Part shown: in pieces, positions 5,884-55,609 of the stretch
Layout: the number at the start of each line of letters is the position of its first letter
How positions within the stretch are numbered: the stretch's first letter is position 1
Assembly (NCBI GenBank): GCA_951406725.2
Contig: OX597821.1
Location: 79,546,001 to 79,610,000 of the forward strand
Direction of reading: 5' to 3'
Source of the DNA: Octopus vulgaris
Taxonomy: Eukaryota
Length of the DNA stretch: 64,000 bases
The notes under the pieces: generated by a model
The model's database searches: none
What the model was told of the DNA's origin: nothing
The model's input: the letters and a program-made list of their open reading frames with translations, nothing else
Translations under genes and position numbers: made by a program

Positions 5884-8168
5884 ATGGCTGCCCCCTCGTT
5901 ATCGAATATGGCCATTGCACGAAGATTAACTGTTATTGGTGCAGAGATTGACCAGTTTGACATCATCGGCAAATAGAAGGGTGTGTTGCGTGAGGTCGTC
6001 GGGCAAGTCATTTATGAAGACTAAGAACAATAAGGGCCCAAGCAATGAACCTTGAGGCACGCCACTGCTCGCACTGGAGACGTCCGTCAGCGAACCATTA
6101 ACTTGGACTCGGAAGGAGCGGTCTGAGAGGAAGGCACCAACCCATCGTACAATATCCGGATGGAAACTATATGCTTGAAGCTTGACAAGTAATAGGCGGT
6201 GGTTTACCGAGTCAAAAGCTTTGGCAAAGTCGAATAAAACGATGTCAACAGCGTCACCATCATCGAGGATACGCATCACCAATTCTTCCATTACCAGTAA
6301 GTTGGTCAAGCATGATCTCTTCGGCATGAAGCCGTGTTGGGAATCAGAGATAGAGGCTGTGTTTTGGAGGTGGAGCAACATACTTTTCTTAAGGATGGTT
6401 TCGAACATCTTGCTGATTATTGAAGTAAGGGAAACCGGTCGGTAGTTAAGCGGGTCTTCGCGGCTCCCTTTCTTGAAAATTGGGCAGATTATCGCTGTTC
6501 CCCAGTCCGCAGGTATAACACCCGTCGCCAATGACATATTGAATAGACGTGTTAAGGGCTCGCAAATGACCGGAGCCAACGCTTTGATAACCCGTGGGTG
6601 TATGCCGTCAGGGCCGTGATCCTTGTTGACATCGAGGCCTTGAATAACACGTTTGACTTCGTCCCGCGTGATGACCAATCGAAGCATTGGAGGTACCGAT
6701 CTATCAAATGGAGGGGGTTCACGACCATCATCTTGTTTGAAAATAGTTGAAAAAGCCTCGGCAAATAACTGACTCTGTTGATAAGAGTCCTCAATCGATA
6801 CGCCTGCCTGTTGAGTCTACCAACGTTGCAATCTGTTTGTTCAAGCGGGAATTCCGTTGGACATGGGCAAAGAAGGTTTTGGGATTGCGATTGGCGTTTG
6901 CCGCGATTCCGTATTCATATCTGAAGCGTTCTTCCTTTTCAATTTTCACGGCTCGGTCTCGTTGAGTTTTGTACACCTCAAAAGCTGCAGTCGAATCTAG
7001 ATTTTTTAATTCAGCCCAAGCTGAAGTTCTCGTTTAACCTTCTTCGTCACCCAGGGCTTGTGTTTCTTCCTCTTGGGAAGCCCAACGGGAACTGCCTGGT
7101 CAGTCAACCAGATTACATATGCTTTGAGGGACGACCATAGTTCGTCAACTGAGGACATCGTCATCAGGGATCGCCAGTCCAGAAGCGCGGAAGCCTCGGT
7201 TAGAATTTCAAGATTGATTGCAGAGAAGACTCTACGTGGCAGCAAAGTAGTCGTGGGCGTAGAAAAAGTTGTGTGCATGTCGAACTTCAGGACCGCGTGA
7301 TCATTCTTGGCAAGAGGGGCGCACACAGATAAGCCTGACACTGATCTTGGATAGCGGGAGAATACCAGATCCAGCATAGATGGCTGCTGCCCAGACCGAT
7401 GCCTTGTCAGATATTCAACATGTTGCGATAGAAAAAAATCTTCAGCCACATCAAGAAGGGCCTGGCCGAACCGGGAAGATGATGTACAAATTGATGCGTT
7501 GAAGTCTCCTAATATCAAACAGTCATGAGAAGCTGAAACGAATCTTATCACTTCGAGTAAATGAGCATCGTCCTGGGGGTCGGCAAGAGGCGGCCTGTAG
7601 ACAGCTAACACGGGCAGGCAAAACCTGGATAGGCTCAGCTTGCAATAGACGGCATCGAATTTTGTTGTAGGTTGAGCATTAGTGGGTAGAATACCGCTGG
7701 ACGGTTTGAGATCAGATTTAACATACTCAGCAACACCTCCACCTCGCCTTTTTTCTCTGTCACATCTGAAGATGGCGTAGCCCTGTAGGTGGATTTCTGA
7801 GTCCTTTACTGCTGGAGTCAGCCAAGTCTCGGTGATAGCTATCACATCTGGGGAATCACGCCAGTGTAAATAACTCGCTGAACTTTGGAAATAAGGAGCA
7901 CGAGTTGGTATAGACGATGCTGAGCTGTGAAGTTTGAGGGGCGGGAATTATGGAACAAGCAGAATAAGGAGTGTCAGAGGTAGCATCGTTGTCGGGAGTA
8001 TCTACTTTACTTCGATTCGCCCTCGATTCACTTTCCCTGTCAGCACTACAGCATGCGACCAGAGGTATGACTTGCTTATTTGTCCATCTTGGATGCGTAA
8101 ACCCTTCTCTCCCATCTGAATACTCGTGTGAACTGGCCCACAAATACTCTGAAGCTAGGCAAGTGCTC
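5881..8168 (-). mobile_element. CR1/L2-group LINE (ORF1 C-terminal remnant, APE endonuclease, RT), frameshifted and 3'-truncated just after FADD
   Basis: EN motifs IAITETWL, RGGGVA, ILGDFNA, LDLVF and NDH (7006-7845). RT motifs GPDGIHP, NYRPVSLTS, DFAKAFD, GVPQGS and LFADD (5926-6687). ORF1-like GEKGLRIQDGQI at about 8080-8115. Confidence 0.92.
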
Positions 8169-8169
8169 T

Positions 8170-10709
8170 ACATCAGATAGAGCAGCAGCAGAACTGCTCT
8201 TTAATCTGATGGATGAATACTTCCTGACTCAGATAGCGCTCGAACCAACGAGACAGAATAAAAAGATCTTGGATCTGGTATTGACCAATCACTCTAGCTT
8301 CGTTCACAGCATTTCAGTTGAAAAAACTCTCCTCTCAGACCACGACATGGTACTCTGCAATTTTAATTCCCGACATATAAAAACCAAACCAACCAATCTC
8401 ACTCCATGGCACTCATTTGACAACATAAACTTCCACAAAGCGGACTGGGGAGAAATCAGAAAGGATCTGTCTTCCATCGACTGGTCTTTTACTCTCAATT
8501 CCTCTCATATTGAGACCGCATGGCAGCACTTTGAAAACATTGTCACCTATACATGCTCTAAACACGCTCCCACGAAATCTACTAACACAAACAGAAACCG
8601 GCTTCCTAAAAAGAAAAAAAAACACTCATCAGGCGCATCAAATGACTCTACAAAAATATCAACCAATTAAAATATTCCCACACACAACATCCACATTCAA
8701 CAACAATGAAAAGGCTAGAGCTGGAAAAACTTCATCTGCAGACCGACATGAAAACCTCCATTGAAAATCAAAGAGCTGTGGAGGAACAGTGGGTAATCAA
8801 AAACATCAAACAGAACCCAAAAGTGTTCTATTCTTACGCAAATAAGCATAGAACCACTGTCTCACCCATTGGGCCATTGATTGATGATAACGGCATTCCC
8901 CAACACGATGCTAAAGAAATGGCAGAAATACTGCAGAAACAATACTGCTCTGTCTTCAGTGTTTCCACTGATATTGACGTAAGAGAAGCGAACGAAGTTG
9001 ACTCCCAACATAAAATCTCAGACATAAGCTTCACTGCCACTGACATCATAGCAGCAATAAATGAGGTCAAATACTATTCTGCTGTAGGCCCTGATAGATT
9101 CCCCGCTAGTCTCCTGAAGGAATGTAGACACCAACTTGCAGTCCCTCTGACCAACCTCTGGAGAAATTCGTTAGACGCAGGTTATATACCAAAACAGTTT
9201 CTATCCCAGTCAGTCATCCCGGTTTTCAAACAGGGAAACAGATCCCTCGCACTCAACTATCGCCCAATCTCACTCACCTCCCACATCATTAAAGTGTTTG
9301 AAAGAGTGTTAAGATCAAGGATAGCTGACTTCCTGGAGACCCACAAACTCCTAAATGCAAATCAGCATGGCTTTCGCTGTGGCAGGGACTGTCTAACACG
9401 GCTCTTACACCACATTGAAGATGTACTCAAAGCCTTGGGAACAGGTTCGAACTCTGATGTCATATATCTTGACTTCAGTAAAGCGTTCGACAGGGTAGAC
9501 CATAATATCCTACTCTCAAAATTGGCAAATGTTGGAATCCGTGGAAAAGTTCTACACTGGATTAAGTATTTCCTGGCGAATAGAACACAACATGTTGTAG
9601 TTGATGGAGTCCACTCAAGCCCAGCAGAAGTCACCAGCGGTGTCCCCCAGAGAACTGTCTTGGGTTCGCTACTCTTCATAATTTACATAAACGACCTTTC
9701 CAGTGTCGTACATTACTGCAAAGTGAAAATATTTGCTGATGACACTAAGCTCCAGCAAATCGTCAATGAAGAAGCAGACCGAACTCAACTCCAGTCTGAT
9801 CTATATGCTGTGAGTCAATGGGCAGACAGAAACAAAATGCAACTGAACGAGGGAAAATTTGAGCTGATGCATTTTGGAAGAAATTTCTCACTAAAACAGC
9901 CATACTCTCTTCCTTCAGGGGAACCGCTCACAGCCTCTAACAATATCAGAGACCTGGTATATTGTTGATGACGATCTCAGTTGGAGTGCACACATCAACA
10001 AAAAGGTCGATATAGCTCGTAGGGTGAGTTCCTGGATCTTAAGAACTTTCCGGTCCAGAGAACAAGGTGTCATCATACCACTTTTCTCCTCCTTTGTACG
10101 GCCACACCTCCAATACTGCTGCCCACTATGGTCTCCTCATACAAGACAAAACATCTCGAAGATTGAATCACCGCAGAGGGCACTCACTAAACGAATCGAA
10201 GGCATGGCTGCTCTCGATTACTGGGATCGCCTTAAAGCCTTGAAACTCTACTCTCTCCAGCGTCGCCGTGAGCGGTACATCATTTGTACGATGTGGAGAA
10301 TATACCGCCAACTTTGCCCAAACGACCTGAACATTAGCTTCAAGGTTCATCCAAGACTGGGACCACAGGCCATACGTCCCCTGCCCAATTCAAGATCACA
10401 GCATACATGTACACTGCAACATAATTTCTTTTCCTCAACAGGCCCTGCCCTATTTAACATTGTCCCGAAAGAGATCAAAGAGGAAAAGGATCCCATCAAC
10501 TTTAAACGGAGTCTGGATAGATTCCTTCAAAGAATACCAGATAAGCCACCCATAATTGGATACAACTCACCCAACAAAAACTCACTACTTGAATGGACCA
10601 TAAACAAAGCTTGACTTAAACGGGGTTCAAATAATCCTATTAGGTGGTGCTATTAAGTTAGACATGGCCTGGACCAATCTTTGGTCGAAACATATCTAAG
10701 TTTATCTAA

Positions 10710-10767: not shown

Positions 10768-11173
10768 CATTTACATTTATTTATATTTACATTTATATTT
10801 ATATACAAGCACATACATATGCATGCCCGGTTTGTACGACCAAGTGGTGTAGATGAGCTGTGATCTTTGTGGGTCCTAAAGTGTCTTGAGACCTTCCTTA
10901 GATTTTCAGACCTTCTGGCATACAGAGTATTGAAAGGTGTGCACAGACATATAGGCAGAGTAGTTGGTGGAGGTTCGTTTTGTATGGTTTCGCAAATGAG
11001 ATATGGTCCAGAAATAGAATTTTCAGAAAATATGCTCATTCAAAACTTTCACTGCAATTTTGTTTGCCATTCAACTCGGTCTGATGCAAGGGTTTCTATG
11101 GCTTTTGGATCAAGTCCAACTGACACTTCATGTGATTTCCTTACACAGTCCTTAATATACCTCTCTTTCTCTC

Positions 11174-11216
<43 letters not shown>

Positions 11217-11364
11217 GGTTTAAATAATTGAGATTCAAGTGAATTCTAATGAATTCACATGAATATGGTCCTTAACTAGGATGCACCGGAAATCTATATG
11301 GTGTTAACCATACGACAAGTGGGGTGATTACAAATAGGAAAAAGCAACAAGAATGGATTAAAAT

Positions 11365-11450
11365 CTCGGTACAATTGTTTCGTACGAGGACATCTTTAAT
11401 AAGCTACAAAAAATGCAGTAAATACAGATGGCTCGTACTCGTCAGCCGAA
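11365..11450 (-). ncRNA. Type I hammerhead ribozyme (inverted arm of the PLE)
   Basis: Reverse complement of 15486-15571. Confidence 0.85.
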
Positions 11451-11806
11451 AAAACATCAGAGAATTCCCAAACATCAAAAGGGGTAGATACCAAAGAGGG
11501 TGTAAGATTAACTGCATTGAAGAAAGTTCGATTCCTGGAGATCCGATGAAAGGTCTTAAACTTACAGAATTTGTGCATATCTATATATAGCTCATATTAA
11601 ATTTCTAATCAAGTTATGTGAAGAAATTTCGGATACAGTCATGCGAAATTTCTGAAAATCCGAGTAAGAAGCAAAATGAGTGTCATATCGTGTAGCGGAA
11701 AATCTGAGTAAGAAGCAAAGTGACTGTCATATCATGTAGAGGAACAGATTGTTATTGAAATTTACAAGAATTACAGATAAGTTCAATTCCTGGAGATCCG
11801 ATAACC

Positions 11807-14321
11807 CCACTTCTTCCCTTAAGCCTGTGGATAAATACCGATGAGGTTCTTAAATGGTTTAACTCCCTAACTAATACCAATAATCTAGCCTTCATTCAAT
11901 TCGACATAAACAACTACTACTCTAGCATTTCCCCTATCCTATTAAATAAATCGCTTATATTCGCGATAAATCGCTCCCTCATATCTAGAGAGGAAATAGA
12001 TATTATACTTTTAGCTAGAAAAACATTTATTGAGTTTGAGGGAAAATTATGGACCAGAGCTGATACCCCTAACTATTTCGATATTCCTATGGGCTCCAGT
12101 GATTCGGCTCAGGTGACCAACTTAGTCGGAGCATATCTACTTAAATGCATAAAGAGGGAGATCCCCGAATTGCAAGGTGGGTTATATAGAGATGATGCTT
12201 TGTTTGTTGTCCATACCAATAATAAATCACACATAGAAAGAATCAAAAAGAAAATTAATAGGTTTTTTAAAGATTTCAACCTTAGTATAACCTATGAACC
12301 AAGCATTAAAATAACTAATTTTCTAGATATTACTTTAGACCTTAACTCCAAACTACATTATCCATTTAGAAAAGAAGGTGAAATCACTAGTTACGTAAGT
12401 AAATTATCTAATTATCCCCCAAATATAATTGATTCCTTAGTTAGAAATATTTCCATGAGAATATCCAAATTATCGTCTAATTTTGATATATTTAACTCAC
12501 ACTCAGGACATTACAATGAGGCGTTATCTAGAGCAGGATATAACCAAAAAATTACATTTGTTGATATGAAAACCTTACAAACTCATAATAATTTAAGTAA
12601 TTTAAATAACAATAACCACATAAACAACAAAAACGATCAAGCCGAAAAGGTACGTAGATGTAGATCTAATACAACATCTAATCGTAATGATAATAAGTAC
12701 AAAGATAAATACATAGACCATAACATAGATAGCCCTGATAAGACAACCTTAAATAAAATTAAGAAACATACAATTAGTAACGTAGACAACAATAATGACC
12801 AAGCCAGAAATTATAGTAGAAATAGATTTACAACGGCAAAGTACCCTAATGATATTAAGAACATTAATAAAAACATAACAGTGAACACTTGTAATAAGGA
12901 TAAAATAAACTTGGATAAAACTAATAAACATGCAAACAAGAACATTAATAAATACAAAGAATCTGATGATAGTAGGAATAATTCTAACAACCCTAACTCT
13001 AGTGGGAAAAATTCTAACAGCCCTAACTGTAATTCTAGGAAATTTAATAAGAAGGACATAATATGGCTAAACATCCCTTTTAACTGTGCGGTTTCATCAG
13101 ATATTCAGAGTAGATTCAAAACAATTCTTGAAAAAAATTTCCCATCCTCTCATAGATATCATAAAATTATTTCTAAAAAAACAGTCAGAATTTCTTATTC
13201 AACCCTCCCAAATATGTCCACTTTAATAGCTAAGATCAATAATAATAACATAAAACTAGCCAGAAAAAATTTAAACCATAAAAATTAAAATACAATTGAA
13301 AGTTATAATAACAGTACTGAAAGTAATAATTACAACAATGATAATAAGGAATGTCATATAATAAATACAACCAATAGCTATAGAATTGTTAACAATAATA
13401 ATAACATAAATAGGAATGATTATGTTAATAATAGGAATAATACCAGGAATGTAAGTACAGTGAATGAGGACAACAATGTTATCAGCAACAACACTACACA
13501 TTTGGAAAACAATACCGACAACAATACTAACAGCATCAACAATATCAATAATGATAGTAGGGTTATAGAACCAAATGATAGTATAGGAATACCAACAAAT
13601 GATAATACTACTTTAGGTGATAACATTAACTACAATAATGATAGCATTATTTTAGATAACAGCACCAATAATATTAATAATGAAGGTAGGGCTTTAGAAC
13701 CAAATGAAAATGTAGGAATGCCAATAAATGATAATACTATTTTAGATAATAATATTAACTACAATAATGATGGAGTTTTTTTTAGATAACAACAATAACC
13801 AAAATCATGATAATTTTACCCGCAATGCTTCGAGCAACAATAGTATGAGACTTCTATCGTCAAGTTATTCTACTTCAGATTATAATTCCCCTAGATGTAA
13901 CTTCAGAATTAAATCTAAATGCCCGGCACCTGGTTTATGCGGGTTAAATAACATAATCTATAAATGCTCCATAACCACAGATAATAATAAATTCACTTAT
14001 GTTGGATGTACTGTAAATTTAAAAAAAAGATTGAATAACCATCTTTCCTCCTTCAGATTACGTCATAAAGCTGATAGCACCACTCTTTCTAGTAAAATTT
14101 GGGAACTAAAAAACAATAATATCAGATATAACCTTAATTGGGAATTAGTCAGAAGAGCAATACCCTATAAAAATAGCAGAGTAGGTTGTCAACTTTGCTC
14201 CATGGAAACATTTGAAATACTAATGTATAGAAAAAATAGGGAAATTTCATTAAACAGCAGAATTGAACTTGGAAAATCTTGTATACACGCTCGAACTAGG
14301 ACTCTTAAATATTTTAAATGA
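11807..14321 (+). pseudogene. Disrupted PLE RT-GIY-YIG ORF with long Asn-rich inserts
   Basis: Pieces 11807-13288, 13460-13789 and 13767-14321 in shifted frames. The start of the ORF is replaced by the inverted arm. Confidence 0.85.
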
Positions 14322-14956
14322 TATTTTAATTGACAACTGTATATTAAAATCACTTTGTATAAAATCACTTTGATTTATACATTACTCCTACATAGTACAT
14401 TATAAATTTAACTAGACAGATACGAACTAAATAGCTATGATTATATTCTCTCTCTAACTGTACTATTTAATACTTATTGTTTTAAGTTATTTGATTTATT
14501 TCTATTAGACTATATAAATAATTTAAATTTTGCTCTATTTTTATCTCCACTTCTTAGTCTATTTCACTTTAACCCACCTATATAAACAATTAGTTAGTTA
14601 AATCTCTTAGTTTCTTTTACACTAATAATTAATTCTGCTAATCCCAAACCTATTATAATATATTGTAATATAATATAATATAATATAGTATAATAATAAT
14701 ATAATTGTTTGGTTTCATTAAAAAACAATCCCTTTTTTCTTTCCTTTCTAATGACCTCTCATTGTAACCTGACAATCTATTAATAGTAACATTTATAAAT
14801 AAAGAAATAAATTATTGACCTCAGTTCGAATTTTGCACCAAGCAAGCTTAGATTTTTCTTATAGTATCAACTTGTGTCCATCCCCTTAGCTTCCCGTTCC
14901 CTTCTCTTTGATAGCATTAATAGCAGTAACTGATTAAATTCTAGTTCCTTCCTCTT

Positions 14957-15412
14957 CTCTCTGTGATTCTTGTAAATTTCAATAACAATCTGCCCCTCTA
15001 CAGAATAAGACTGTCATTTTGCTTCTCATCCGAATTCCCTGATATTTTCGCATGATTGTACCAAAAATTTCTTCACATAACTGGATTATGAACTATAGGG
15101 ACATGCACATATTCTGTAAGTTCAAGATTTTTTATCGGATCTCCAGGAATTGAACTTATCTGTGATTCTTGTAAATTTCAATAACAATCTGTTCCTCTAC
15201 ATGATATGACAGTCACTTTGCTTCTTACTCAGATTTTCCTCTACACGATATGACACTCATTTTGCTTCTTACTCGGATTTTTAGAAATTTCGCATGACTG
15301 TATCCGAAATTTCTTCACATAACTGGATTAGCAATTCAATATGAGCTATATATAGACATGCACAAATTCTGTAAGTTTAAGACCTTTCATCGGATCTCCA
15401 GGAATCGAACTT
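14957..15412 (+). repeat. Two diverged tandem units (about 200 and 250 bp) in the PLE 3' UTR
   Basis: TCTGTGATTCTTGTAAATTTCAATAACAATCTG...ATCGGATCTCCAGGAAT occurs twice. The second unit has an internal duplication of about 45 bp. Confidence 0.8.
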
Positions 15413-15485
15413 TCTTCAATGCAGTTAATCTTACACCCTCTTTGGTATCTACCCCTTTTGATGTTTGGGATTTCTCTGATGTTTT

Positions 15486-15571
15486 TTCGGCTGACGAGTA
15501 CGAGCCATCTGTATTTACTGCATTTTTTGTAGCTTATTAAAGATGTCCTCGTACGAAACAATTGTACCGAG
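15486..15571 (+). ncRNA. Type I hammerhead ribozyme in the PLE 3' terminal region; predicted cleavage after GUA (A15566)
   Basis: TTCGG-CTGACGA-GTACGAG...CTCGTAC-GAAA-CAATTG-TA-CCGAG. Stem I, extended stem II and short palindromic stem III are all present. Confidence 0.88.
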
Positions 15572-15588
15572 ATTTTAATCCATTCTTG

Positions 15589-16777
15589 CCACATGACCAT
15601 ACCAGCGCAAACGTCTCTCTTGCACACCACAACTGATGCTTCTTAGGTTCAACTTTTCTCTCAAAGTACTTACACTCTGTCGAGTATGAACACTGACATT
15701 ACACATCCATCGGAGCATACTGGCTTTATTTCTTGCGAGCTTACGCATATCCTCAGCAGTCACGCCCCATATTTCACTGCCATGCAGCATGGCTGTTCGT
15801 ACACATGCGTCATACAGTCTGCCTTTTATTCTGAGTGAGAGGCCTTTTGTCACCAGCAGAGGTAAGAGCTCTCTGAACTTTGCCCAAGCTATTCTTACTC
15901 TAGCAGTTACACTTTCGGCGCACCTGCCCCCGCTACTGACTTGGTCACCTAGGTAACGGAAGCTTTCAACTATTTTTAGTTTTTCTCCCTGGAATGTGGC
16001 GGAAGTTGGTCTCAGAGCATTTTCAGTGTTTATTGCTCCTGAGCATCTGCCTCATACAAAAACTATCTTCCTAGTTAGCCTTCCTTTGACATTGCTGCAC
16101 CTCTTATGTGTCCATAGCTTACACTTGGTGCATCTTATAGAGTTTCTACCTACACCTTTTCTACAGATTGAGCAGGGCCAGCTACCTGAAGGCGTTTGTG
16201 ATTTGTCTACCTTCCTACTTATTAGGACTTTGGTTTTGGCTAGGTTGACTCTAAGGCCCTTCGATTCTAATCCTTGCTTCCACACCTGAAACTCTTCCTC
16301 CAGTGGGCTGAGGATTGAACCTTGGTAGACCCCTACTTCTACCTAGAATTCTTCACTGTACTCGTTGCCAACCCTCACCTTACTAGCAGCGTCCCTGTAC
16401 ATGGCTCGCACAGCTCTCACTAACCATTCATCTATCCCTAGTTTCCTCATTGACCACCAGATAAGGGATCGGGGGACCCTGTCGAAGGCTTTCTCCATGT
16501 CAACGAAAGCCAGGTACAGGGACTTATCTTTGGCTAGGTATTTCTCCTGCAGCTGCCTTACCAGGAATATAGCATCAGTGGTACTTTTCCCTGGCACGAA
16601 CCCAAACTGCATCTCATCTAAACTAACTCTCTCTCTAATTAGTTGGGCTATGACCCTCTCCGTAGCCTTCATTACCTGATCCAACAGCATGATACATCTG
16701 TAATTATTTGTATATAGGGCGTCACCTTTACCTTTGTAGCAGTTGATTATTATGCTGCTACACCAGTCATTGGGCAT
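15589..16777 (-). mobile_element. RTE-clade LINE RT fragment with a Cys-rich (PHD-like) insert; catalytic YADD region deleted
   Basis: PNDW..YKGKGD..NYR, QFGFVPGKSTTDAIF, FVDMEKAFDRVPR, GVYQGS|LEEEF, FRYLGD, RRLRWYGHV. Confidence 0.92.
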
Positions 16778-16842
16778 TAAGGAATGGGCCAGTCGATAAT
16801 ATCGAGCCCAGTGCTCACTTGGTATTTATTTTATTGACCTTG

Positions 16843-17445: not shown

Positions 17446-17770
17446 TAAAGACTCCGCCGGTTACGACGACGAGGGTCCCAGCTGATACGATCAACGGAAC
17501 AGCTTGCTCGTGAAATTAACGTGCAAATGGCTGAGCATTCCACAGACACGTGTACCCTTAACGTAGTTCTCGGGGATAATCAGCGTGACACAGAGAGTGA
17601 CAAGGCTGACCCTTTGAAATACAAGTACAACTCATTTTTGCCAGCTGAGTGGACTGGAGCAACGTGAAATAAAGTGTCTTGCTCAAGGACACAACGCGTC
17701 GCCGGGAATCGAACTCACAACCTTACGATCATGAGCCGAATGCCCTAACCACTAAGCCACGCGCCCTCAC
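17446..17770 (-). mobile_element. Young full-length tRNA-derived SINE with 13-bp target-site duplication
   Basis: A box TGGCTTAGTGG and B box GAGTTCGATTCC. TSD TGATTCTCTCATT at 17433-17445 and 17771-17783. Nearly identical to 55282-55609. Confidence 0.9.
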
Positions 17771-18825: not shown

Positions 18826-20545
18826 AAAACAAAATAAAATAAAATAAAATAGAATGAAATGAAATAAAAAAATAAAAGAAAAGAAAAGAAAATAACAAAA
18901 AAATTAAATAAAATAAAATTAAATTAAATTTTTTAAAAATAATAAAATAAAAAATAAAATGAAATAAAAACAATAAAATAAAACAAATAAAATAAAATAA
19001 AAAAAATAAAATAAAATAACAAAAAAAAAGATAAAAATAAAAAAAATACAAAATACAAAATAATAAATCTTTTAACTGAAAAAATAAAATATAAAAACAA
19101 AAAACAATCATAAAAAATAAAATAAAATAACAAAAAATAAAATTAAAAATAAAATAAAAAAATAAAATAAAATAAAAAATAAAATGAAATAAAATAAAAT
19201 AATATAAAAAAGTAAAATAAAATAAAAAATAAGATAAAAAATGAAATAAAATAAAATATAATATAGTAAAACAAATTAAAATAAAAAATAAAATAAAATT
19301 AAAAAAATAAAATAAAAAATAAAATAAAATAACAAAATGAAAAACTAAAAAGATAAAAAATAACAAAAAAAAATTAGAAATAAAAAATAAAAACAAAACA
19401 CAAAAATAAAATGAAATAAAATAAAATAAAATAGAACAAAAACAAAATAAAATTAAAACCATTAAGTAAAATAAAATAAAATAAAATAAAATAAAAATAA
19501 AATAAATTAAATAAAATTAGATAAAATAAAAAAAGATGAAAAATAAAATAAAATAAAAGATGAAATAAAAAATGAAATAAAATAAAATAAAATAAATTGA
19601 AATAGAATAAAAATAAAATACGAAAAAATTAAAATAATTCAAAAATAAAAAAATTAAAAATTAAAAAAATTAAAAAATAACAAAAAAAATAAAAAAATAA
19701 AATAAAATAAAAATAAAAATAGAAAATTAAAATAATAAAATAAAAAATAATTAAATAAAATAAAATAACAGAAAATTAAATAAAATTTAACAAATAAAAT
19801 TAAGTTTTTTTAAAAAAGAGATCAAAAAATTAATGAAATAAATAAAATAAAATAAATTAAAAATTAAATTAAAAATAAAATAAAATAAGATATTTAAAAA
19901 ATTAAAAGAAAATTTTTTTAAAAATATTTAAAAAATATAAAAACAATAAGAAAAAATAAATAAATGAAATAATATAAATTAAACAAAATAACATAAAATA
20001 AGAAATAAAATAAGAAATTAATAAGAAATTAATAAGAAATAAAATAAGAAATTAAATATATTAGAGGATATTTATTGAAAAATAAATTAAAATAACAAAA
20101 TAAAACTACAATAAAAAATTTTTTTTATAAATAAATAAAAAAATTTTTAAATAATAAAAATTTTAAAAGATAAAATAGATAAAATAAAATAAAATAAAAT
20201 AAACAAAAAATAACACAAAAAATAAAATAAAATAAGATTAAATAAAAATAATAAAATAAAATAAAATAAAATAAATAAAATAAAATAAGATAAAATAGAA
20301 TAAAAAATAAGATAAAATAAATTAAAATAGAAAATAAAATAAATAAAAAATAATAAAATATTGAAAATAGAATAAATAAAATAAAATAAGATAAAATAAA
20401 ATAAAAAATAAAATAAAATAAATTAAAATGAAAAATAAAATAAATAAAATTTTAAAATAATAAAAGATTGAAAAAAATAAGAAATAAAAAAATGTTTTTT
20501 ATCTTTATTTTTATTTTTTATTTTATGTTATTATTTTTTATTTTG
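18826..20545. repeat. Degenerate (AAAAT)n tract, switching to T-rich at its right end
   Basis: About 1.7 kb of almost pure A/T with a 5-bp period. Confidence 0.95.
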
Positions 20546-23500
20546 ATAGAGTGACATAGGCGTAGATAGACGAAAATAGAGTGAGGTAGGCGGAGATAGA
20601 GTGAGATTGGCGGAGGTTGCCGGAGTTTGCCGGAGATAGCCGAAGATTGCCGGAGTTTGTCGGAGACTGCCGGAGATAATTGGATATAAGCCGGAGATTG
20701 ACGGAGATTGACGGAATAGCAATTTGGGAGATTTCCCAATAATTCTGAATGTTAAAACACCTGGGAGAGAGTGAGATAGAGTGATAGTCTGAGATAGAGG
20801 GAGATAGGCGGAGATAGAGTGAGATAAGTGGAGATTGGAGAAGATTGCCGGAGATTGCCGGAGATTGCCGGAGATAGGCAGAATAGAATTTTGGGAGATT
20901 TCCCAATAATGCTGGGTGTTAAAACACCTGGGAGAGAGGGAGAGTGTATGATTGGCGGAGATTGGCAGAAATTTGCGGAGATACTTGGAGATAGGCGGAA
21001 TACTATTTTGGGTGATTTCCCAATAATGCTGGGTGTTAAAACATCTGGTAGAGAGTGAGATAGAGTGATAGACTGAGATAGGTGGAGATAGAGTGAGATA
21101 GGCGGAGATTGGCGCAAATACGCGGAGTTAGGCGGAGATTGCCGGAGATTGCCGGAGATTGCTGGAGATAGGCGGAATAGCATTTTGGGAAATTTACCAA
21201 TAATGCTGGGTGTTAAAACACCTGGGAGAGAGTGAGATAGAGGGAGGTAGGCGGAGATAGATTGAGATAGGCGGAGATATAGTGAGTTAGGCAGAGATAG
21301 AGTGTGATAGACGGAGATTGCAGGAGTTTACCGGAGATTGCCGGAATTTCTCGGAGTTTGCCGGAGATTACGGAAGTTTGCTGGAGTTTGCCGGAGTTTG
21401 TCGGAGATTGGCGGAATAGCATTTTCGGAGATTTCCCAATAATGCTGGAGTGTGTGAGATAGATTGCGATAGGCAGAGATAGAGTGAGATAGATGGAGAT
21501 AGAGTGAGATAGGCTGAGATAGAGTGAGATAGGCGGAGATAGAGTGAGATAGGCGGAGATAGAGTGAGATAGGCGGAGATTGGCGGAGATCGCCGGAGTT
21601 TGCCGGAGATAGGCGGAATAGCATTTTGGGAGATTTCCCAATAATGCTGGGTGTTAAAACACATGGGAGAGAGGGAGAGAGTAAGATTGGCGTAAACGTG
21701 CGGAGATTGGCGAGCTTAGCAGAAATTCGTGGAGGTAGGCGGAGATAGGCGGAGATTGGCAGAAATTCGCGGAAATAGGCGGAGACTAGCGGAGATAGTT
21801 GGAATGGCATTTTGGGAGATTTCCCCATAATTCTGGGTGTTAAAACACCTGGGAGAGATAGAGTGAGATAAGCGGAGATAGAGTGAGATAGGCGGAGATG
21901 GGCGGAGATAGATTGAGATATGCGGAGATAGCGTGAGATAGGCGGAGATAGGCGGAGATAGAGTGAGTTAGGCGGAGATAAAGTGAGATCGGCGGAGATA
22001 GGCGGAGATTGGCGAAGATTGGCGGAGATCGCCGGAGATTGCCGGAGATAGGCGGAATAGCATTTTGGGAGATTTCCCAATAATACTGGATGTTAAAACA
22101 CCTGGGAGAGAGGAAGATTGGCGTAGATGGGCGTAGATTGGCGGAGATTGGCAGAAATTTGCGAAGATAGAATGTGATAAGCGGATATAGAGTGAAATAG
22201 GCCGACATAAGTGCGAGATTCGCGGAGATAGCCTGGGATTGGCGGAGTTTCACGGAGATTGCCGAAGTTTGACGGAGATTCCCGCAGTTAGACGGAGATT
22301 GTCGGGGTTTGCCGGAGCTTGCCGGAATTTGCCGGAGTTTGTCGCAGAAAGCCGAAGATAGCCGGAGATTACCGGAGATTGCCGGAGTTTGCGAAATAGC
22401 ATTTTGGGAGATTTCCTCATAATGCTGGATGTTAAAACACCTGGGAGAGAGTCAGTTAGAGTGAAATAGAGTGAGATAGAGTGATAGGCGGAGATAGGCG
22501 AAGATTGGCGGAGATAGGCGGAAATAGGCGGTGATTGGCAAAGATTGCCGGAGATTGCCGGAGAGTGCCGGAGATTGGCAGAAATTTGCAGAGATAGGCG
22601 GAGATTGGCGGACATAGGCGGATATTGATGGAGATAGGCGGAATAGCATTTTGGGAGATTTCCAAACAATGCTGGGTGAGAAACACCTGGGAGAGAGTGA
22701 GATGGAAGGAGATAGGCGGAGATAAGCGGAGATTGCTGGAGATTGGCGGAGTTTCCCGGAGATTGCCGTACATTGCGGCAGTTTGCCAGAGATTGCCGGA
22801 ATTTCCGAGACTTTGCCGGAGATAGCCGGAGATTGCCGGAAATAGTCGGAGATGGCCGGAGATTGGCGGAATAGCATTTTCGGAGATTTCCCAATAATGC
22901 TGGGTGTTAAAACATCCAGGAGAGTATGAAATAGAGTGAGATAGAGTGAGATAGGCGGAGTTAGAGTAAGATGGGCGGAAATAGAGTGAGATAGGCGGAG
23001 ATAGAGTGAGATAGGCTGAGACAGAGTGAGATAGGCTGAGACAGAGTGAGATAGGCGGAGATTGCCGGAGATTGGTGGAGATTGCCGGAGATAGGAGGAA
23101 TAGCATTTTAGGAGATTTCCAAATAATGTTGGGTGTTAAAACACCTGGGAGAGAGAGAGAAAGAGTGAGATTGGCGGATTTTTCCGGAGATTGGCGGAGT
23201 TTCTTGGAGATTGCTGGAATTTGCCGGAGATTGCGAATAGTACCGGAGACCTCCGGAGATTTGCGGAATAGCATTTTGGGAGATTTCCCAATAATTCTGG
23301 GTGTTAAAACACCTGGGAGAGAGTTAGATAGGCGGAGATTGAGTGAGATTGGTGGAGATTGGCGGAGATAGAGTGAGATTGATGGAGATAGGCGGACTAG
23401 CATTTTGGGAGATTTCCCAATAATGCTGGGTGCTAAAACACCTGGGAGAGAGTGAGATAGGCATAGATAGAGTGAGATAGGCGGAGATAGAGTGAGATAA

Positions 23501-23829
23501 GCGGAGATAGAGTGAGATTGGCGGAGTTTGCCGGAGATTGCCGGAGATTGGCGGAATCTGGCGGATATATCCGGAGATTGCCGGACATTGCAGGAGTTCG
23601 CAGGAGTTTACCGTAGTTTGCCGGAGTTTGCCGGAGATTGCTGGAGATTGCCGGAGATTACTGGAGATTGCCGGAGATTACCGGAATTTACCGGAGATAG
23701 CAGGAGATAGCTTGAGATTGGCGGAATAGCATTTTGGGAGATTTCCCAATAATGCTGGATGTTAAAACACCTGGGAGAGAGTGAGATAGAGTGAGATAGG
23801 CGTAGATAGAATGAAATAGACGGAGATAC
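20546..23829. repeat. Complex satellite: conserved block of about 55 bp separated by runs of 10-mers (GGCGGAGATA / GCCGGAGATT / GAGTGAGATA)
   Basis: About 15 copies of GCGGAATAGCATTTTGGGAGATTTCCCAATAATGCTGGGTGTTAAAACACCTGGGAGAG. Confidence 0.95.
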
Positions 23830-24409
23830 AAAAAAATAATAATAAAATAATATAAAATGAAACAAAATACAAAATTTTTTTTTAAATAATTAAAAATAAG
23901 ATAAAATAAAATAAAATTAAAAAATATAAGAAAATAAAATGAAAAATAAAATGAAATAAAATAAAATAAAGAAAAACTAATCAAAATAAAATGAAATGAA
24001 ATAAAATAAAAAATTAAAATTAAATATAAATAAAATAAAATAAAATGAAATAATATAAATAATAATACAAAATAAAATAAAATAAAGATTAAAAGAAAAA
24101 TTAAAATGAAATAAAACAAAATAAAAGAAGATAAAATAAAGATAAAATAAAAAATAATATATATATTCTATTTTACTTTATTTTATTTTTATTTTTGTTA
24201 TTTTATTTTATTTTTTAATTTATTTTATTTTTTTATTTTATTTTCCTTTTATTGTATTTTATTTTTCTCTAATTTTTATTTAAAAACATTTTTTATTTTT
24301 AAAAAAATAACATAAAATAGAAAATTTAATAAAAATAAAAAATAAAATAAATTTTTTTAATTTTTATTTTTTTATGTTTATTTTATTTTATTTTATTGTA
24401 TTTTATTTT
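23830..24409. repeat. (AAAAT)n then (TTTTA)n low-complexity tract interrupting the satellite
   Basis: A-rich to about 24160, then mostly T-rich. Confidence 0.9.
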
Positions 24410-24880
24410 GATAGAGTGAGATAGGCGGAGATAAAGTGAGATAGACGGACATAGAGTGAAATAGGCGGAGATAGAGTGAGATAGGCAGAGTTAAGAGTGA
24501 GATTGGCGGAGATAGGTGGAATATCTCGAAAATTGCCGGAGTTTGCCGGAGTTTGCCGGAGATTGCAGGAGATTACCGGAGATTGTTGGAAATAGCCGGA
24601 GATCACCGGAGACTGCCGTAGATTGCCGGAGATAGCTGGAGATCGGCGGAATAGCACTTTGGGAGATTTCCTAATAATGCTGGGTGTTAAAACACCTGGT
24701 AGAGTGTGAGATTGGCGGAAATAGAGTGAGATTGGCAGAGATTGGTGGAGATAGGTGGAATAGCATTTTGAGAGATTTCCCAATAATGCTGCGTGTTAAA
24801 ACACCTGGGATATAGTGAGATAGATGGAGATAGGCAGAGATAGAAAGAGGTAGGCGGAGATAGTGTGAGATAGGCCGAGA
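24410..24880. repeat. Second block of the complex satellite (2 more conserved blocks)
   Basis: Same 10-mers. Conserved blocks at about 24646 and 24757. Confidence 0.92.
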
Positions 24881-25006
24881 TTTTTTTGAAAATTTTCATC
24901 AATATTTTTGAAAAGTTTTTTCAAAATTTTCATCAAAATATTTGAAAGGTTTTTTGAAAATTTTCATCAAAATTTTTGAAAAATTGTTTTGAAAATTTTC
25001 ATCAAA
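24881..25006. repeat. About 33-bp minisatellite (TTTTTGAAAATTTTCATCAAAATTTTTGAAAAG); also at about 31712-31816 and 32019-32230
   Basis: About 4 units here and about 6 units at 32019-32230. Confidence 0.85.
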
Positions 25007-46999: not shown

Positions 47000-47320
47000 C
47001 ACTCTGTCGGTTATGACGATGAGGGTCCCAGCTGATACGCTCAATGAAACAGCTTGCTCATGAAATTAACGTGCAAGTGACTGAGTAATCCACAGACACA
47101 TGTACCCCTAACATAGTTCCCAGGGAGATTCAGCATGACACAGAGTGTGACAAGGCTGGCCCTTTGAAATACAAGTACTACTCATTTTTGCCAGCTGAGT
47201 GGACTGGAGCAACGTGAAATAAAATGTCTTGCTCAAGGACACAACACGTCGCCGGGAATTGAACTCACGACATTACAATTGTGAGCCAAATGCCCTAACC
47301 ACTAAGCTACGTGCCTTCAC
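47000..47320 (-). mobile_element. Older copy of the 17446/55282 SINE
   Basis: Collinear with 17450-17770 but with more substitutions. Confidence 0.85.
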
Positions 47321-55281: not shown

Positions 55282-55609
55282 GTGAGGGCGCGTGGCTTAG
55301 TGGTTAGGGCATTCGGCTCATGATCGTAAGGTTGTGAGTTCGATTCCCGGCGACGCGTTGTGTCCATGAGCAAGACACTTTATTTCACGTTGCTCCAGTC
55401 CACTCAGCTGGCAAAAATGAGTTGTACTTGTATTTCAAAGGGTCAGCCTTGTCACTCTCTGTGTCACGCTGATTATCCCCGAGAACTACGTTAAGGGTAC
55501 ACATGTCTGTGGAATGCTCAGCCATTTGCACGTTAATTTCACAAGCAAGCTGTTCCGTTGATCGTATCAGCTGGGACCATCGTCGTCGTAACCGGCGGAG
55601 TCTTTTTTT
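55282..55609 (+). mobile_element. Young full-length tRNA-derived SINE
   Basis: Near-identical reverse complement of 17450-17770. Intact A/B boxes and CpGs. Ends in a T run. Confidence 0.9.

What the first reader, a model, noticed from the sequence alone, without database searches (positions are those of the whole stretch)
11215..15588. Penelope-like element caged between two inverted 457-bp arms, each with an intact hammerhead ribozyme
Seen: 11348-11804 is a near-perfect reverse complement of 15132-15588. Both arms contain an identical hammerhead (CUGACGA / GAAA / GUA), and the left arm abuts the RT frame mid-domain. Known: PLEs carry hammerheads in their pseudo-LTRs and can have inverted terminal copies. 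Inference: a transcript from either strand would meet an active-sense ribozyme at its far end and could also fold into a panhandle of about 450 bp. That makes the locus both a bidirectional self-cleaving cassette and a dsRNA source. The left arm preserves about 130 bp of terminus (11215-11347) that is missing on the right, where an RTE fragment begins.
Basis: partly seen in the sequence, partly recalled or inferred. Interest (0 to 1): 0.72.

Follow-up and report, generated by a model that had tools for sequence, protein, structure and literature searches.

The report
Dead Hydra-clade Penelope, routine inverted arm
The two mirror-image arms with ribozyme motifs are real, but they are the common head-to-head layout of a broken Penelope-type jumping gene, seen at about a third of this family's ribozyme-bearing sites, and were likely made in one insertion event rather than kept as an RNA device.

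Summary
In detail: 457-nt arms, 8 mismatches, identical hammerhead cores. The interpretation mostly does not. The locus is a 5'-truncated, coding-dead Hydra-clade Penelope-like element (PLE) with an inverted partner arm. That layout is published (PMC8557442, PMC3846280) and common here: 26 of the first 74 hammerhead-bearing loci listed are such pairs. The family ends at two fixed points 117 nt apart, both abutting (TA)n, and 34 of 34 head-to-head pairs typed at both ends have one short and one long end. So about 119 of the 133 'missing' bases were never expected on the right; 14 nt and the TA flank were lost at an 11-nt microhomology with an older RTE. The hammerheads have a 2-bp palindromic helix III (dimer type; about 1% active fold as monomer), and the panhandle (-798 kcal/mol) would bury them. 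No RNA data could test expression. The best mechanism is priming from both target strands at two RNA start sites (inferred). The scan has noted this layout, and the short/long rule, on other DNA of this genome.

The parts
11178..11214 (.). (TA)n target tract at the left end
   Evidence: one search lists the TA run 11178-11213; family ends abut (TA)n
11215..11333 (-). Optional tail (about 119 nt) between the short and long 3' end; in full-length copies it is the 5' leader and continues 54 nt to the ORF start codon
11334..11347 (-). Last 14 nt of the short terminus, present on the left, lost on the right
11348..11804 (-). Left arm: inverted, 5'-truncated copy of the element's 3' end (pLTR)
11363..11452 (-). 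Type I hammerhead motif in the left arm (predicted cut between 11370 and 11369)
   Evidence: mirror of the right copy
11801..11804 (.). Head-to-head junction with 2-4 nt of microhomology
   Evidence: 2 nt against L069; family contigs fit from 11801
11805..13288 (+). 5'-truncated RT and thumb with first Asn-rich insert; lacks about 226 N-terminal residues; premature stop at 13286-13288
13289..13789 (+). Second Asn-rich insert with a 129-nt-period internal repeat; frame changes near 13780
13779..14321 (+). Linker and GIY-YIG endonuclease with CxxC and CxH; linker reads CNF instead of CNC in this copy
   Evidence: Pfam PF01541 E=2e-5
14322..15131 (+). 3' untranslated region with older degenerate repeats of the arm's 5' part (14960-15157)
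15132..15588 (+). Right arm (sense pLTR), ending 14 nt short of the family's short terminus
15484..15573 (+). Type I hammerhead motif: helix I 6 bp, helix II 7 bp plus long extension, helix III 2 bp with palindromic loop; predicted cut after 15566
15578..15588 (.). 11-nt microhomology shared by the PLE end and the RTE (one mismatch against RTE copy L082)
15589..16825 (-). Older RTE-like LINE fragment whose 3' end is missing at the junction
   Evidence: RVT_1 E=4e-14; related copies continue past the junction

Best explanation
The locus is a 5'-truncated, coding-dead Hydra-clade Penelope-like insertion whose inverted arm was likely made during the insertion itself, probably when both nicked strands of a (TA)n target primed reverse transcription outward-in from the element's RNA end. 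Shown: the family has two fixed 3' ends 117 nt apart; head-to-head pairs carry one of each; both arms stop at variable inner points and meet at 0-4 nt microhomologies or short inserts; the arms have drifted independently. Inferred: one strand primed at the long site (giving tail plus 457-nt arm), the other at the short site (giving the 3.8-kb body), from the same source RNA or source locus; the two cDNA ends were joined by end-joining; later, or at insertion, an 11-nt microhomology join to an older RTE removed 14 nt, the TA flank and the RTE 3' end. The hammerheads are passengers of the pLTR, predicted to need a partner copy (and perhaps the element's protein) to cut, and predicted to be buried by the panhandle in any transcript that crosses both arms. 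Confidence is about 0.9 for identity and by-product status, about 0.6 for the priming mechanism.
For: Exact genome counts: 479 hammerhead half-motifs, 302 short ends, 284 long ends. Of the first 100 listed hammerhead matches (74 loci), 26 loci are divergent pairs, 0 convergent, spacing 45-3805 nt. Of 199 listed ends, 34 of 34 divergent pairs are long+short (chance 6e-11 if ends were independent). In 36 fetched loci chosen by arm identity, 18 were clean head-to-head pairs, all long+short, counted by eye. Both end sites carry AT-alternating bases that match the target. Arms of one locus share letters seen in no other sampled locus in 8 of 24 arm comparisons, up to 8 letters. Window arms: 4 private changes left, 3 right, 1 at a polymorphic site. 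Hydra motifs met. PMC11167929 shows a PLE protein nicking and extending both strands from two internal RNA sites that bound the tail, with the ribozyme dispensable for insertion in vitro.
Against: The mechanism is read from end structures only. The partner arm was the nearest sequence in only 13 of 24 comparisons, and only 56 other loci were sampled. L068 looks short+short and L069 is complex. PMC11167929 found no homology between target and start site and no strand preference of the two sites, whereas here the ends show short AT homology and a strict one-of-each rule. No target-site duplication can be read in (TA)n, and this locus has lost its right flank. Clade assignment is by motifs, not by tree.
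Confidence: 0.78

Rival explanations
1. One reading: the locus works as a bidirectional self-cleaving cassette and selected dsRNA source.
For: Both cores intact and identical; panhandle predicted at -798 kcal/mol with perfect stretches of 113 and 117 bp. Geometry is as described.
Against: Intact cores are the family norm (80 of 84 full-length copies matched the core pattern). Active monomer fold about 1%. Panhandle and ribozyme exclude each other. Arms diverge independently. PMC4209133: single PLE min-hammerheads showed no cleavage, dimers low cleavage, and opposite-strand pairs were already seen.
Confidence: 0.06
2. The inversion arises by self-priming or fold-back on an antisense template, with the tail left by endonuclease resolution of a DNA intermediate (models in PMC3846280 and PMC8557442).
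For: Arms share a source. Two junction inserts look like fold-backs (L031, L044). A staggered cut could also give one long and one short end.
Against: Most junctions are asymmetric, not palindromes. Either end type sits on the longer arm. Two pairs have a long-end arm made of tail only (L052, L053). The two ends match RT start sites shown biochemically for another PLE (PMC11167929).
Confidence: 0.12
3. Two independent insertions into one (TA)n tract, or a later inverted duplication or gene conversion.
For: Convergent pairs across a TA tract exist (L049, L081), and L069 shows a local inverted duplication that includes 1 kb of flank.
Against: No TA lies at the junction 11804/11805. The arms are closer to each other (1.8%) than to the nearest other locus (2.6%). 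Independent events would not give 34 of 34 long+short pairs; duplication would copy the same end.
Confidence: 0.03
4. The inversion is an assembly artefact.
For: No displayed contig from other runs bridged the junction, which is uninformative for collapsed repeats.
Against: The arms differ at 8 sites split between both arms, have different outer ends, and follow a family-wide rule.
Confidence: 0.01

Closest known systems
Hydra clade of C-terminal EN+ PLEs, including Hydra-1_Obim (PMC8557442; passages, section 11 and supplement table rows seen)
   Same: RW[KR], DKT, CxCx5C linker, CxxC and CxH around the endonuclease end, C-terminal GIY-YIG, (TA)n targets, hammerhead in the pLTR; inverted 5'-truncated copy and one-sided tail as in its Fig. 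2 legend.
   Different: Longer (ORF 1072 aa with two Asn-rich inserts, unit about 4.7 kb, against under 3 kb); tail 117-119 nt against 30-40; Hydra-1_Obim is listed at 2507 bp with no pLTR, so it is probably another family (sequences not compared).
Adineta vaga Pen2/Pen2a-Pen5 (PMC3846280; passages and Discussion seen)
   Same: 5'-truncated copies flanked by inverted pLTRs, tail on one arm, Asn-rich inserts between RT and thumb or RT and EN, microhomology deletions.
   Different: Readable TSDs and a 31-bp tail there; the authors favour self-priming on an antisense template.
Poseidon of Anolis carolinensis, PAc (PMC11167929; main text parts 1-2 read)
   Same: Two internal start sites bounding the tail, both strands nicked and extended, AT-rich targets, hammerhead upstream of the start sites.
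   Different: Other clade; sites lie inside the ORF and are close together; no target homology reported; inverted insertions not discussed.
PLE min-hammerheads (PMC4209133; Results and Discussion read)
   Same: Type I, 7-bp helix II, short palindromic helix III, dimer-dependent, also seen as opposite-strand pairs.
   Different: Helix II here closes a 57-nt segment with a further stem; Rfam misses it.

Membership tests
EN+ Penelope-like element | Single ORF with RT and C-terminal GIY-YIG endonuclease | tested here: met
   1072-aa ORF in natural copy L069; GIY-YIG E=2e-5 in the window. Pfam gave no RT hit for the window fragment; RT motifs seen by alignment
EN+ Penelope-like element | pLTR from partial tandem or inverted copies, optional tail | tested here: met
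   L069, L070, L075, L086 tandem 5' pLTR plus tail before the ORF; inverted pairs
Hydra clade | RWK motif near the N-terminus | tested here: met
   RIRWR in L069 (K to R); pattern in 47 of 91 homologues; lost from the window copy by truncation
Hydra clade | DKG changed to DKT | tested here: met
   ADKT at 123 in L069; 87 of 91 homologues, DKG in 0 of 91
Hydra clade | CxCx5C linker; CxxC and CxH flanking the conserved E and N | tested here: met
   CNCRIKSKC 932, CQLC 1029, CIH 1060 in L069
Hydra clade | CCHH motif absent from the endonuclease | tested here: inconclusive
   No such motif evident by eye between GIY-YIG and the conserved R in the alignment; no reference Neptune or Poseidon sequences were aligned
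Hydra clade | Insertion into (TA)n | tested here: met
   302 short and 284 long ends directly followed by TA repeats
Hydra clade | RT phylogeny groups with Hydra references | not tested
   No named reference sequences were available as tool sequences
Neptune clade (my first guess) | DKG and CX2-5CxxC linker | tested here: not met
   DKT and CxCx5C instead (definitions)
Type I hammerhead ribozyme | Core CUGANGA, GAAA, NUH with helices I and II | tested here: met
   Rfam negative
Type I hammerhead ribozyme | Stable helix III as monomer | tested here: not met
   2 bp plus 4-nt loop; active fold about 1%; 8-nt palindrome kept in 65 of 70 correctly parsed copies, in two forms
Type I hammerhead ribozyme | Self-cleavage activity | not testable with these tools
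   needs an assay or raw RNA reads

The most novel reading that the evidence does not exclude
Every head-to-head insertion of this family uses the short start site on one target strand and the long start site on the other, because one ribonucleoprotein (likely a dimer) primes both strands 117 nt apart on one RNA, helped by 3-6 nt of AT pairing with the (TA)n target. One rule would then explain the three long-standing PLE oddities (inverted arms, one-sided tail, microsatellite targeting), and this family's wide spacing makes it easy to assay.
Probability: 0.5. Interest if true: 0.5.

Novelty: new member of a known kind. Interest (0 to 1): 0.2.

Why it matters
The locus itself is ordinary transposon debris. 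Its value is as one sample of a family whose strict one-short-one-long rule (34 of 34) constrains how Penelope-like elements build inverted insertions, a step still open in the papers read. Hundreds of such pairs could also be incidental dsRNA substrates where they lie in transcribed DNA, which matters in cephalopods with heavy RNA editing (recalled, not tested).

Tried and rejected
Rfam scans found no hammerhead. Neptune assignment rejected on motifs. 'RTE inserted into the PLE and removed the tail' rejected: the RTE lacks its own 3' end, the left flank 10790-11176 does not match RTE copies, and the junction is a microhomology. Single tandem RNA with fixed roles (5' pLTR gives long end, 3' pLTR short end) rejected: either end sits on the ORF-bearing arm. 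Lead that copies start at the ribozyme cut site: TA-flanked 5' ends at the cut 1, at two control offsets 0 and 2; no pile-up, but counts are tiny and inverted partners were not covered. Sequencing runs: no RNA holder listed; only contigs could be laid (8 run layings); no displayed contig bridged 11804/11805, and guessed-RNA runs held family contigs that continue into the full-length sequence, so nothing follows for this locus or for expression. One search's pattern misread 10 older copies; re-parsed (8 palindromic, 2 not). No long host exon was evident among window ORFs of 110 aa or more (by eye), so whether the locus lies in an intron is unknown. Literature: 'Penelope + twin priming + inverted' gave 2 unrelated papers (listing only); some searches gave the papers cited; Evgen'ev and Arkhipova 2005 and Arkhipova 2006 were not available, and they or supplements not seen may already state the end rule.

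Full report
Observation. The arms 11348-11804 and 15132-15588 are reverse complements over 457 nt with 8 mismatches and no gaps. Each holds a type I hammerhead motif: helix I of 6 bp, CUGACGA, helix II of 7 bp closing a 57-nt segment, GAAA, a 2-bp helix III with a 4-nt loop, and GUA with the cut predicted after 15566. Rfam does not detect it. The window lies at G000:C8:79546001-79610000 in a 2.8-Gb genome; homologue names point to an octopod, an inference.

What the element is. Natural full-length copies (L069, L070) have a partial 5' pLTR, a tail, and one ORF of about 1072 aa. The window copy begins at residue 227, has a stop at 13286-13288 and changes frame near 13780, so it cannot encode the protein. 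The ORF carries RW[KR], DKT, a CxCx5C linker, GIY-YIG, CxxC and CxH, the features given for the Hydra clade in PMC8557442 (section 11 read); my first guess, Neptune, failed. Two Asn-rich inserts (22% and 35% N) recall Adineta elements (PMC3846280, passages and Discussion read). No tree was built.

How common the layout is. Exact patterns count 479 hammerhead half-motifs, 302 short ends and 284 long ends, all lower bounds. Only the first 100 places of each were listed. Among the 100 hammerhead places (74 loci) 26 loci are divergent pairs within 6 kb and none is convergent; two have spacings as large as the window's. Inverted 5'-truncated partners with a one-sided tail are described as typical in PMC8557442, and opposite-strand hammerhead pairs in PMC4209133.

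The ends. The family stops at two points, 37 and 154 nt past the predicted cut, both followed by (TA)n. Among 199 listed ends in the range covered by both lists, all 34 divergent pairs are one short plus one long; one further neighbour pair is same-strand. Of 36 loci fetched by arm identity, 18 were clean pairs, all short+long, 3 had incomplete or complex inverted pieces, 1 was convergent and 14 were solo (by eye). Among 20 loci fetched by RT similarity, 5 more pairs obeyed the rule, L068 looked short+short and L069 was complex. The window's left arm has the long end. So the right arm should have had the short end: only 14 nt and the TA flank are missing. Related RTE copies run on through 15578-15588 with nearly the same 11 letters as the PLE end, the RTE lacks its 3' end, and the left flank is not its remainder. 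A microhomology-mediated deletion fits; whether it happened at or after insertion is unknown.

Mechanism. On each strand, read from the flank inward, the sequence is the complement of the element's RNA starting at one of the two end sites. That is what two target-primed cDNAs would leave. PMC11167929 (main text read) showed a PLE protein, predicted as a dimer, cutting and extending both strands from two internal sites that bound the tail. Of 23 junctions examined, 11 had 0-12 nt overlaps (10 of them 0-4), 11 had inserts of 1-44 nt, and 1 gave no clean call, which suggests end-joining. Arms of one locus share private letters in 8 of 24 comparisons, but the partner was the nearest sequence in only 13 of 24, mostly failing for short arms. 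Both end sites have AT-alternating letters that could pair with the target, unlike the anole case. These steps are inference; fold-back on an antisense template (PMC3846280) is not excluded.

The ribozyme and panhandle claim. The 8-nt palindrome across helix III occurs in two forms that differ on both sides (29 and 36 of 70 parsed copies, 5 imperfect). The varying pair cannot close in a monomer and fits a dimer; this is one inherited change, not many. The constrained active monomer has about 1% weight, the panhandle is -798 kcal/mol on both strands, and it covers the ribozyme. Each strand has one sense copy only. PMC4209133 found no cleavage for a single PLE min-hammerhead and low cleavage for dimers; PMC11167929 found protein-assisted cleavage that was not needed for insertion. 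Intact cores are the family norm (80 of 84), and the arm differences are split 4, 3 and 1 ambiguous, as expected from neutral drift. A transcript crossing the locus would give dsRNA, but then not a folded ribozyme. Expression could not be tested.

Verdict. Real, ordinary: a new member of a known kind, interest 0.2. The family-wide end rule is the only part with mechanistic value; I found it before the look-ups, and earlier unchecked notes of this scan report the same layout (1719 findings hold the search words) and the same rule in this genome. Papers seen only as listings; bioRxiv 10.64898/2026.07.22.740005 and PMC13282606 as passages, with nothing that changes the reading.

Noticed in passing
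L069:464-9340 (G000:C9:84174640+): A full-length copy whose inverted arm includes about 1 kb of its own downstream flank (2857-nt inverted repeat, 99%), then jumps into a hammerhead fragment and long end: a local duplication of host DNA, or an assembly issue.
   Followed up: partly
L049:2484-4153; L081:1674-2004: Convergent pairs: two short ends facing each other across a TA-rich tract, the opposite of the usual layout.
   Followed up: no
L031:6392-6419; L044:6532-6540; L046; L077: Junction inserts copied from adjacent sequence, two as fold-backs, as in polymerase-mediated end-joining (label recalled).
   Followed up: no
L052:6391-6438; L053:3446-3592: Long-end arms made of tail only; L053 stops about 10 nt past the short site, as if halted at the other primer.
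   Followed up: partly
window 11215-11333: The tail folds into two hairpins (-28 kcal/mol, no shuffle control), candidates for the protein-binding site.
   Followed up: no
window 14960-15412: The 3' untranslated region holds degenerate tandem duplications (77-90% identity) whose number varies between subfamilies.
   Followed up: no
window 17447-17770, 47001-47320, 55282-55605: A 324-nt repeat in three copies, two 99% identical in opposite orientation; a young short element, not identified.
   Followed up: no
window 20500-24900: Satellite-like array with a 10-nt period and higher-order units near 200-300 nt.
   Followed up: no
window 8101-10614 (+) and 5929-7947 (-): Decayed LINE copies; 8646-9965 has RVT_1 E=1e-26.
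   Followed up: no
P0049, P0003: Annotated octopod proteins that contain this element's RT: an 'ankyrin repeat protein' with 66% identity over part of the query and a 'GATA zinc finger' protein; misannotation or fusion.
   Followed up: no
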